Position numbers and translations under genes: made by a program
Notes under the pieces: generated by a model
The model's input: the letters and a program-made list of their open reading frames with translations, nothing else
The model's database searches: none
What the model was told of the DNA's origin: nothing
Shown: piece by piece, positions 32,335 to 32,944 of the stretch
How positions within the stretch are numbered: the first letter of the stretch is position 1
Layout of the letters: every line of letters begins with the position of its first letter
Assembly (NCBI GenBank): GCA_009914755.4
Contig: CP086569.2
Span: forward strand, 512,001 to 576,000
DNA: 64,000 nt
Origin: the human T2T-CHM13v2.0 reference genome, Homo sapiens
Reading direction: 5' to 3'

Positions 32335-32944
32335 CTTTTTTTTTTAGAAATGGAACCTCGCTCTGTCACCCAGGCTGTAGTGCAGTGGCATGATCTCGGC
32401 TCACTGCAACCTCCACCTACCGGGTTCAAGTGATTCTCCTGCCTCAGCCTCCTGAGTGGCTGGGATTGCATGCACCTGCCACCACGCTGGGCTAATTTTT
32501 TTTTGTGACGGAGTGTCAGTCTTCTTGCCCAGGCTGGGGTGCAGTGGTGCGATCTCGGCTCACTGCAACCTCCACCTACCGGGTTCAAGTGATTCTCCTG
32601 CCTCAGCCTCCTGAGTGGCTGGGATTGCACGCACCTGCCACCACGCTGGGCTAATTTTTTTTTGTGACGGAGTGTCAGTCTTCTTGCCCAGGCTGGGGTG
32701 CAGTGGTGCGATCTCGGCTCACTGCAACCTCCACCTCCCGGGTTCAAGCGATTCTCCTCCCTCAGCCTCCTGAGTAGCTGAGATACAGGCGTGCACCACC
32801 ACAGCCAGCTAATTTTTGTATTTTTAATAGAGATGGGGTTTCACCATGTTGGCCAGGCTGGTCTCGAACACCTGACCTCAGGGAATCTGCCCGCCTCGGC
32901 CTCCCGAAGTGCTGGGATTACAGGTGTGAGCCACCGTGCTAGGC
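32335..32944 (-). mobile_element. Alu SINE whose right monomer (~160 bp) is present in three tandem copies
   Basis: The units at 32346-32504, 32505-32663 and 32664-32820 each read g(a/t)(g/a)acgga..tc.ctct..cccaggctg.agtgcagtgg.gcgatctcggctcactgcaacctccacct.ccgggttcaag.gattctcct.cctcagcctcctgagt.gctg.ga...cagg....c.ccaccac..c..gctaattttt. A single left arm follows (32821-32944, ...ggattacaggtgtgagccaccgtgctaggc). Confidence 0.9.

What the first reader, a model, noticed from the sequence alone, without database searches (positions are those of the whole stretch)
32335..32944. Two different old Alus each carry a tandem triplication of the right monomer (32335-32944 and 51340-52001)
In both elements a ~160-170-bp right-arm unit, running gagacgg..ctc..tg.cccaggctgg ... 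ggctaattttt, occurs three times head to tail before a single left arm. The copies within each element are nearly identical, while the two elements differ from each other, so these are two independent local events with the same architecture. Single Alu-internal duplications are common but a triplication seen twice in 64 kb is not. It may reflect replication slippage or unequal sister-chromatid exchange acting in this region. Assembly collapse or expansion is an alternative explanation.
Basis: seen in the sequence. Interest (0 to 1): 0.5.

Follow-up and report, generated by a model that had tools for sequence, protein, structure and literature searches.

The report
Alu right-monomer arrays grown by unequal exchange
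Two old Alu repeats each carry three right halves in a row, but in each case the middle copy is a hybrid of its two neighbours, which points to one ordinary unequal-exchange (tandem duplication) event on a pre-existing pair of right halves, not a special triplication.

Summary
At 32336-32944 (AluS-like) and 51313-52001 (AluJ-like), both on the minus strand, three right monomers lie head to tail next to one left monomer.

- **Hybrid middle unit.** In both arrays the middle unit matches unit 3 on its tail side and unit 1 on its linker side (A-B / A'-B / A'-B'). That is the signature of a single one-period duplication in an existing two-unit array.
- **Element 1.** A 159-bp block is repeated with 1 mismatch across 186 bp. 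The crossover lies in a 27-bp stretch of identity. The event is recent.
- **Element 2.** The same pattern is present (permutation p = 0.0007), but the copies are about 12% diverged, so the event is old. "Nearly identical copies" is wrong here; TRF gives 81% matches.
- **Outer units.** They are no more alike than unrelated same-family monomers in this window. In element 1 they also differ at a site I recall as subfamily-diagnostic, so they are probably separate Alu copies.
- **Substrate supply.** Head-to-tail right monomers joined by an A-run occur at 6 loci in this Alu-dense window, as expected from the published Alu-into-Alu insertion hotspot.

This is an ordinary Alu-derived tandem repeat. 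Read support and orthologues could not be checked.

The parts
32336..32345 (-). Element 1: A10 tail of the outermost right monomer (T10 on the + strand)
   Evidence: Sequence read directly.
32337..32495 (-). Element 1, unit 1 (A-B): right monomer with G at right-monomer position 20 (Sq/Sp/Y-type by my recollection)
   Evidence: parse (R 32357-32495, 88.5% to AluSx R). State table. Sub-threshold 7SL match 32345-32492.
32496..32654 (-). Element 1, unit 2 (A'-B): chimeric right monomer. The tail side is identical to unit 3. The linker side is identical to unit 1 apart from one CpG site.
   Evidence: 23 sites u2=u3, then 16 sites u2=u1; permutation p < 1e-5.
32655..32813 (-). Element 1, unit 3 (A'-B'): right monomer with C at position 20 (Sx/Sz-type by my recollection), joined by a canonical linker to the left monomer
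   Evidence: the L-to-u3 linker aligns to TACTAAAAATACAAAAATTAGC.
32392..32736 (-). Element 1 duplication footprint: a 159-bp block present twice (32392-32550 and 32551-32709) plus the shared 27-bp crossover zone gatctcggctcactgcaacctccacct (32392-32418 = 32551-32577 = 32710-32736). The only mismatch is 32471 T vs 32630 C.
   Evidence: identity at offset 159 over 186 bp with 1 mismatch.
32828..32944 (-). Element 1: single left monomer
   Evidence: 92.9% to AluSx L. Sub-threshold 7SL match 32828-32944.
51303..51312 (-). Element 2: tail-side copy of the target-site duplication (TAATAGGTGA in Alu sense)
   Evidence: local alignment: 10 of 11 positions match the copy at 52003-52013.
51313..51352 (-). 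Element 2: degenerate AT-rich tail, (TAAA)n-like
   Evidence: Sequence read directly.
51338..51505 (-). Element 2, unit 1 (A-B): AluJ-type right monomer plus the proximal part of the tail (the unit boundary as used in the alignment overlaps the tail part 51313-51352)
   Evidence: R 51353-51500, 83.1% to AluJo R. Sub-threshold 7SL match 51350-51497.
51506..51673 (-). Element 2, unit 2 (A'-B): chimeric right monomer. The tail-side ~37 bp groups with unit 3 (86.5% vs 75.0%). The rest groups with unit 1 (88.8% vs 69.6%).
   Evidence: (max chi-square 17.0, p = 0.0007). Shared derived states.
51674..51845 (-). Element 2, unit 3 (A'-B'): AluJ-type right monomer
   Evidence: Sub-threshold 7SL match 51692-51837.
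51846..51881 (-). Element 2: expanded A-rich linker between unit 3 and the left monomer
51882..52001 (-). Element 2: single left monomer
   Evidence: 82.5% to AluJo L. Sub-threshold 7SL match 51884-52000.
52003..52013 (-). Element 2: 5'-side copy of the target-site duplication (TAAGTAGGTGA in Alu sense), one base from the Alu start

Best explanation
Each locus is an Alu whose right monomer came to lie head to tail with a second right monomer. One unequal homologous exchange, or an equivalent replication-slippage duplication of one period, then added a third unit that is a hybrid of the two.

**Step 1: how the two-unit array formed (inferred).**
- Element 1: the two parental right monomers are most likely from different Alu copies. 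One would be a right-arm-only piece beginning at TTAGCC and separated by an A9 run. That is what a 5'-truncated Alu placed at the A-rich linker or tail hotspot of another Alu would give. Recombination between an A-tail and a linker A-run would give the same result.
- Element 2: the spacer between units looks like the Alu mid-linker (GTCTCTAC-A5-TAAC-A7-TTAGC). An early unequal exchange between the homologous 3' ends of the left and right monomers of one Alu is therefore equally plausible. All units lie inside one target-site duplication.

**Step 2: from two units to three (shown).** Misaligned pairing of the two right monomers, with exchange inside a shared stretch, gives A-B / A'-B / A'-B'.
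- Element 1: the exchange fell in a 27-bp identical stretch. The event is recent, with 1 difference in 186 bp.
- Element 2: the exchange fell nearer the tail end of the monomer. The event is old, with about 11-13% divergence between the duplicated parts. I infer this as roughly a third of the element's age.

No function is implied. These are neutral structural by-products of Alu density.
For: **Four monomers per element.**

**Element 1.**
- Offset-159 identity runs over 186 bp (159 + 27) with a single mismatch at a CpG site.
- Informative sites partition perfectly: 23 u2=u3 sites, then 16 u2=u1 sites, permutation p < 1e-5.
- Both unit junctions are the identical string GTCAC-A9-TTAGCC, so a contiguous block including the junction was copied.

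**Element 2.**
- Max chi-square 17.0, permutation p = 0.0007.
- Tail-side segment: u2-u3 86.5% vs u2-u1 75.0%. Linker-side segment: u2-u1 88.8% vs u2-u3 69.6%.
- Units 1 and 2 share the derived states 33T, 58A and 100C, which unit 3 lacks. Units 2 and 3 share 139C and 143T, which unit 1 lacks.

**Outer units look unrelated.**
- Element 1 u1-u3 share 0 non-CpG derived states, against a null mean of 0.28.
- They differ at right-monomer position 20, G vs C.
- Their identities fall within or below the distribution for unrelated pairs.

**Substrate is common.**
- All six right-to-right junctions in the window are an A-run followed by TTAGCC.
- This matches the published hotspot for sense-orientation Alu self-insertion directly after the linker, with little or no target-site duplication: about 15,759-19,000 cases genome-wide (PMC2836564).
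- The adjacent left monomers elsewhere in the window do not show the block-wise identity or adjacent-unit sharing seen in the right-monomer arrays, which fits nested insertion (that sharing test was weak).

**Related published mechanisms.**
- Recombination between the two A-tracts of an Alu is a described route to Alu monomers (PMC5753468). That right-monomer duplication is its reciprocal product is my inference.
- Alu-derived tandem repeats that expand in situ are catalogued (PMC3389668).

**Element 2 target-site duplication.** It brackets the whole composite.
Against: - The monomer parse is corroborated by Rfam, but the subfamily call for element 1 rests on my recollection plus the window's own majority consensus.
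- Element 2's mosaic rests on a short tail-side segment of about 37 bp. Over the whole unit, u2 is no closer to u3 (74.1%) than u1 is (77.8%). A short gene-conversion tract could mimic this.
- For element 2, units 1 and 3 share two uncommon states: 72T (2 of 53 other monomers) and 111G (3 of 53). Their tail and spacer both start with a TAC-like motif followed by ATAAATAAAT. This hints at an early true duplication rather than independent copies, so step 1 is unresolved there.
- No target-site duplication was found for element 1.
- Unequal crossover, slippage and gene conversion cannot be told apart from one sequence.
- No reads or second assembly of the locus were available.
Confidence: 0.78

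Rival explanations
1. One reading: one Alu's right monomer was copied twice in place (1 to 2 to 3, or 1 to 3 in one step), so all three units descend from a single inserted right monomer.
For: - Element 2: one target-site duplication brackets the whole composite.
- Element 2: the spacers look like the Alu's own linker.
- Element 2: all three units share 72T and 111G, which are rare among other monomers in the window.
- The step from two units to three is indeed a local duplication in both elements.
Against: - Element 1: units 1 and 3 share no non-CpG derived state.
- Element 1: they differ at right-monomer position 20, which I recall as subfamily-diagnostic.
- Element 1: they are less alike (78.5%) than the average unrelated AluS pair (83.0%).
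- Element 2: u1-u3 identity (74.6%) equals the null (75.2%). Two shared non-CpG states is within the null range, since 15 of 45 unrelated AluJ pairs share at least 2.
- A one-step triplication would give three equally related units, not a chimeric middle unit.
Confidence: 0.15
2. Three independently inserted right-arm pieces (5'-truncated Alus or free right monomers) stacked at A-rich sites, later partly homogenised by gene conversion between neighbours.
For: - Stacking of Alus at the A-rich linker or tail is common genome-wide (PMC2836564) and in this window.
- Gene conversion between adjacent Alus is a known process (my own knowledge).
- Element 2's unit-3-like tract in unit 2 is short, about 37 bp.
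Against: - Element 1: identity runs uninterrupted across the unit junction, including an identical A9 run, for exactly one period plus the crossover zone (186 bp). A block duplication predicts this. Two separate conversion tracts meeting end to end do not.
- No internal target-site duplications are visible.
Confidence: 0.07
3. Assembly artefact: the third, near-identical 159-bp unit of element 1 was created (or a further unit collapsed) by the assembler.
For: The duplicated block of element 1 is 99.5% identical to its neighbour, the type of repeat that short-read assemblers can mishandle.
Against: - The two copies differ at one base (32471 T vs 32630 C), which an algorithmic duplication would not produce.
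- The structure has clean homologous breakpoints.
- A 159-bp repeat is far shorter than clone or long-read lengths.
- Element 2's units are too diverged (74-85%) to be an assembly error.
Confidence: 0.05

Closest known systems
Alu-derived tandem repeats / minisatellites (Jurka & Gentles 2006, as cited in PMC3389668; Ahmed & Liang 2012, PMC3389668)
   Same: A segment of an Alu is repeated head to tail and grew in situ by local duplication. Copy number is low, consistent with the published mean of about 2.3-2.4 units. In the demonstrated step, repeat units match their neighbours better than other Alus.
   Different: The unit here is a whole right monomer plus its A-rich spacer (159-168 bp), not a short internal fragment. 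The starting two-unit array in element 1 seems to have been built from two different Alu copies rather than from one.
Alu self-insertion at the post-linker hotspot (Levy, Schwartz & Ast 2010, PMC2836564)
   Same: Orientation is sense. The junction is an A-run followed immediately by TTAGCC, the start of the right arm. There is little or no target-site duplication. The same junction type occurs at all six right-to-right junctions in the window.
   Different: The published cases are mostly full Alus, giving L-L-R-R, as at 5888-6462 and 53228-53822 in this window. Here the extra piece would have to be right-arm-only, and a further duplication followed.
Recombination between the central A-stretch and the A-tail of a dimeric Alu (Kojima 2011, as summarised in PMC5753468)
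   Same: The same two A-rich tracts are involved. The described product is loss of the right monomer. I infer that the reciprocal product is a duplicated right monomer separated by an A-run, as in element 1's junction.
   Different: Only the deletion product is described in the text I could read. In element 1 the two right monomers do not look like copies of each other.
Alu/Alu-mediated non-allelic homologous recombination (PMC6071635, PMC13041450)
   Same: Homology-driven misalignment between Alu sequences, with exchange inside a short identical stretch (27 bp in element 1), producing a chimeric Alu unit.
   Different: The scale differs. Here the misalignment is by one monomer (159-168 bp) within a single composite element, not between Alus kilobases apart.

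Membership tests
Alu (dimeric 7SL-derived SINE) | Left and right 7SL-derived monomers, the right one carrying the extra ~31-bp segment | tested here: met
   L and R halves match at 82-93%; each monomer gives a separate sub-threshold Metazoa_SRP match (19-48 bits; gathering score 70).
Alu (dimeric 7SL-derived SINE) | A-rich mid-linker (A5TACA6-like) between left and right monomer | tested here: met
   the element 1 L-to-u3 linker is canonical. The element 2 linker is present but expanded (51846-51881).
Alu (dimeric 7SL-derived SINE) | 3' A-tail and flanking target-site duplication | tested here: inconclusive
   Tails are present in both. A target-site duplication was found for element 2 (10 of 11 positions). 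None is recognisable for element 1.
Alu-derived tandem repeat grown by local duplication | Adjacent units share private mutations or contiguous identity that unrelated Alus lack | tested here: met
   Element 1: 186 bp at offset 159 with 1 mismatch. u1-u2 share 4 and u2-u3 share 5 non-CpG derived states, against a null mean of 0.28. Element 2: 5 and 4, against a null mean of 1.2.
   Element 1 u1-u3: 0 shared non-CpG derived states and 78.5% identity vs a null of 83.0%. Element 2 u1-u3: 2 shared (within the null range) and 74.6% vs a null of 75.2%. For element 2 an early duplication is not excluded.
Alu self-insertion at the post-linker hotspot (Levy 2010) | Sense orientation; inserted element's A-tail abuts TTAGCC of the target right arm; minimal target-site duplication | tested here: inconclusive
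   Element 1's junction GTCAC-A9-TTAGCC fits. It cannot be decided which right monomer was inserted and which was the target. Element 2's spacer is linker-like rather than a plain A-run.
FRAM (free right Alu monomer family) | Monomeric family older than AluJ, with its own consensus | not testable with these tools
   No Repbase or Dfam consensus was available. Element 1 units are clearly AluS-like (87-89% to Sx vs 79-81% to Jo), which argues against FRAM there. Element 2 units are AluJ-like, and FRAM cannot be excluded.

The most novel reading that the evidence does not exclude
The window may be a local hotspot for small (about 160-370 bp) tandem duplications acting repeatedly over tens of millions of years. 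At least six such events of different ages lie in 64 kb:
- 12126-12843
- 29097-29637
- 32392-32709
- 33553-33872
- 45548-46123
- 51338-51845

There are also several minisatellites. The youngest event, the third unit of element 1 (1 difference in 186 bp), may be lineage-specific or still polymorphic in copy number.
Probability: 0.3. Interest if true: 0.3.

Novelty: already known. Interest (0 to 1): 0.12.

Why it matters
It matters little beyond annotation. The result shows that a striking-looking "double triplication" breaks down into routine steps: Alus stacking at A-rich sites, followed by one unequal exchange.

It gives a clean worked example of how to read the history of such arrays from the chimeric middle unit. 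It also yields one testable prediction: the 159-bp third unit at 32.4-32.7 kb should be absent from outgroup primates and could vary in copy number between haplotypes.

If the regional excess of small tandem duplications were confirmed against a genome-wide baseline, the window would be a modestly interesting example of locally elevated unequal exchange.

Tried and rejected
- **Independent copies of the locus.** I searched public collections with an element-1-specific 43-mer and a unique 36-mer flank, to check copy number in another assembly. There were no matches in metagenome contigs or prokaryotic genome contigs.
- **Rfam at gathering thresholds over the whole window.** No hits. At permissive thresholds only 7SL and Alu-derived miRNA families (mir-3135, mir-1268, mir-1285) appear, all below their cut-offs. 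I take these as Alu sequence, not miRNA genes.
- **PRDM9-type hotspot motif CCNCCNTNNCCNC.** There are 13 matches against 2.5 expected. They lie mostly in Alu left arms and a CCTCC microsatellite, not in either crossover zone, so I dropped this lead.
- **ORFs and base composition, to identify the locus.** Only low-complexity or Alu-derived ORFs turned up. One is a 157-aa ORF at 32274-32747 that merely reads through the repeated units. I ran no further search on it.
- **Whether the L-L and L-L-L arrays are also local duplications.** They do not show the block-wise identity or adjacent-unit sharing seen in the right-monomer arrays, which fits nested insertion. That test was weak, because subfamily-diagnostic states inflated the null.
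- **Target-site duplication for element 1.** None was convincing.
- **Literature on "trimeric" or "tripartite" Alu.** The search returned only aluminium chemistry.

Full report
**What is there.** The window is Alu-dense primate DNA. BLAST with Alu left and right monomer probes finds about 55 Alu loci.

On the minus strand, three right monomers lie head to tail, followed in Alu sense by nothing further and preceded by a single left monomer.

- **Element 1 (AluS-like).** Right monomers at 32357-32495, 32507-32654 and 32666-32812; left monomer at 32828-32939.
- **Element 2 (AluJ-like).** Right monomers at 51353-51500, 51520-51668 and 51694-51817; left monomer at 51882-52001.
- **TRF.** It reports period 159, 2.6 copies, 95% matches for the first, and period 168, 2.8 copies, 81% matches for the second.
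- **Independent support.** Rfam at a permissive threshold gives four separate sub-threshold Metazoa_SRP (7SL) matches per element on the minus strand. Nothing in the window reaches an Rfam gathering score.

**The copies are not "nearly identical".** Whole-unit identities are 89.2% (u1-u2), 89.2% (u2-u3) and 81.8% (u1-u3) in element 1. They are 84.5%, 74.1% and 77.8% in element 2. The high TRF figure for element 1 comes from a mosaic.

**Element 1 is a mosaic with a single clean breakpoint.**
- In a three-way alignment, unit 2 equals unit 3 at 23 consecutive informative sites on the tail side.
- It then equals unit 1 at 16 consecutive sites on the linker side. Permutation p < 1e-5.
- The sequence compared with itself at offset 159 is identical over 186 bp (32392-32577 vs 32551-32736), apart from one CpG-type difference (32471 T vs 32630 C).
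- 186 = 159 + 27. This is what a one-period tandem duplication gives when the exchange falls within a 27-bp stretch (gatctcggctcactgcaacctccacct) shared by two diverged parental repeats.
- Both unit junctions are the same string, GTCAC-A9-TTAGCC. The copied block therefore ran through the junction.

**Element 2 shows the same A-B / A'-B / A'-B' pattern, but it is old and blurred.**
- The tail-side ~37 bp of unit 2 groups with unit 3 (86.5% vs 75.0% to unit 1).
- The remaining ~117 bp groups with unit 1 (88.8% vs 69.6% to unit 3).
- The maximum chi-square for a single breakpoint is 17.0, permutation p = 0.0007.
- Polarised against consensus, units 1 and 2 share the derived states 33T, 58A and 100C, which unit 3 lacks. 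Units 2 and 3 share 139C and 143T, which unit 1 lacks.
- The duplicated parts differ by about 11-13%. I infer that this event dates to roughly a third of the element's age, whereas element 1's event is very recent. These ages are rough inferences, not measurements.

**The outer units are not demonstrably copies of one monomer.** I built state vectors for all 59 right monomers in the window. I then compared sharing of non-consensus states and pairwise identity with unrelated pairs of the same family.
- **Element 1.** u1 and u3 share no non-CpG derived state, against a null mean of 0.28. They are 78.5% identical, against 83.0 +/- 3.3% for unrelated AluS/Y pairs. They differ at right-monomer position 20 (G vs C). 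From memory, this position separates Sq/Sp/Y-type from Sx/Sz-type Alus. They look like two different Alu copies.
- **Element 2.** u1 and u3 share two non-CpG states, 72T and 111G. These are rare among other monomers, but two shared states is within the null range (15 of 45 unrelated AluJ pairs share at least 2). Their identity is 74.6% against 75.2 +/- 4.6%. The first step is therefore unresolved for element 2.
- **Features of element 2 that keep an early intra-element duplication open.** Its spacers align well to the canonical mid-linker (GTCTCTAC-A5-TAAC-A7-TTAGC). A target-site duplication (TAA(G)TAGGTGA; 51303-51312 and 52003-52013) brackets the whole composite. Both fit an early unequal exchange between the homologous 3' ends of the left and right monomers of one Alu.
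- **Element 1.** No target-site duplication was recognisable.

**Where the two-unit substrate comes from.** Adjacent same-strand right monomers occur at six loci in this window: 698/849, 5888/6049, the two focal elements, 53500/53674 and 57573/57746. Every right-to-right junction has the form "3' end, A-run, TTAGCC".

[quoted passage not shown] About 15,759-19,000 such cases are reported genome-wide (PMC2836564). The L-L-R-R arrays at 5888-6462 and 53228-53822 fit full nested insertions. Adjacent left monomers in the window do not show the block-wise identity or adjacent-unit sharing seen in the right-monomer arrays, although that test was weak.

Recombination between the two A-tracts of an Alu is also a described route to Alu monomers (PMC5753468). 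I infer that its reciprocal product would be a duplicated right monomer.

**Mechanism.**
- Shown: one one-period duplication per array, with homologous breakpoints and a chimeric middle unit.
- Inferred: the event was an unequal sister-chromatid or interhomologue exchange, or replication slippage, between two head-to-tail right monomers. Those monomers had arisen earlier by Alu stacking (element 1) or by either stacking or an early intra-Alu exchange (element 2).
- The two events differ in period, junction, breakpoint position and age. They are independent.

**Comparison with what is known.** This is the known class of Alu-derived tandem repeats that expand in situ (Jurka & Gentles 2006 as cited in, and Ahmed & Liang 2012 = PMC3389668). 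That study reports that 0.18-0.40% of Alu loci carry a tandem repeat with at least 95% unit identity, with a mean of 2.3-2.4 units. For about 55 loci that predicts roughly 0.1-0.2 such repeats. One is seen here (element 1), which is not remarkable. No baseline exists for old, diverged arrays like element 2. I could not compute a genome-wide expectation for two three-unit arrays in 64 kb.

**Limits.**
- Consensus sequences and diagnostic positions are from memory.
- No reads, second assembly or orthologue were available. Searches of the accessible collections found nothing.
- Gene conversion cannot be formally excluded for element 2.
- An assembly artefact for element 1's third unit is unlikely, because the copies differ at one base and the breakpoints are clean. 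It remains untested.

**Verdict.** The feature is real and the architecture is correctly observed. It is an ordinary product of Alu density plus unequal exchange, not a tandem triplication of one monomer. Interest is low. The only mildly interesting residue is the number of small tandem duplications of different ages in this window, together with the prediction that element 1's third unit is lineage-specific or polymorphic.

Noticed in passing
window 33508-33941 (TRF 33553-33872): A third Alu-internal tandem duplication lies only ~560 bp from element 1, on the same strand. It has period ~159 and 92% matches. Its structure is R, linker, a chimeric monomer (left-monomer start joined to the right-monomer remainder at a GATCTYG microhomology), linker, L. 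The register differs from the focal arrays.
   Followed up: partly
window 29097-29637: A partial AluY (positions 79-281 plus its TAAAA-type tail) is followed by a full AluY. The two share 12 derived states (5 non-CpG) and are 94.3% identical over 230 bp. This is a ~311-bp local tandem duplication, not two insertions.
   Followed up: partly
window 12126-12843: An old tandem duplication (period ~365, 83% over 357 bp) whose unit contains ~100 bp of non-Alu flank (87% identical between copies) plus an Alu.
   Followed up: partly
window 45548-46123: A non-Alu 288-bp tandem duplication, two copies at 96.2% identity. Origin not examined.
   Followed up: partly
window 5318-5841, 5888-6462, 14188-14585, 17862-18273, 53228-53822, 57180-57894: Many multi-monomer Alu arrangements: R-L-L-L, R-R-L-L, L-L-R, L-L-R-R, L-L-L-R-R. 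Adjacent left monomers do not show the adjacent-unit sharing seen in the right-monomer arrays, which fits nested Alu-into-linker insertions rather than duplications.
   Followed up: partly
window 7501-7865, 13721-13863, 18786-19759, 29870-30984, 55474-55957: The window has many minisatellites by TRF: 89 bp x4, 29 bp x5, 97/197 bp x10/5, 19 bp x59 and 52 bp x9. I did not compare this with a genome-wide baseline. With the small tandem duplications, it hints at a region prone to unequal exchange.
   Followed up: no
window 62138-63586: About 1.4 kb of extremely AT-rich sequence (GC 19% in the 62-64 kb bin) organised as a 58-bp repeat (about 12-20 copies) over an (AT)n background.
   Followed up: no
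window 3827-4757, 8766-9348, 20201-21025, 22085-23006, 26104-26626, 48363-48783: Long compound microsatellites: (TGTGTATATA)n, (CCTCC)n, a TG/CA-rich tract, (AG)n-like, (TTTC)n and (CCTT/CTTT)n. They produce long spurious ORFs in the ORF listing.
   Followed up: no
window 51160-51312 and 52002-52240: Element 2 sits inside sequence that looks to me like the 3' end of an old L1-type element (atatccatcgcctcaccta... continuing after the Alu as ...catcacctacttatttctttgtgg). This identification is from memory and was not tested against a repeat library.
   Followed up: no
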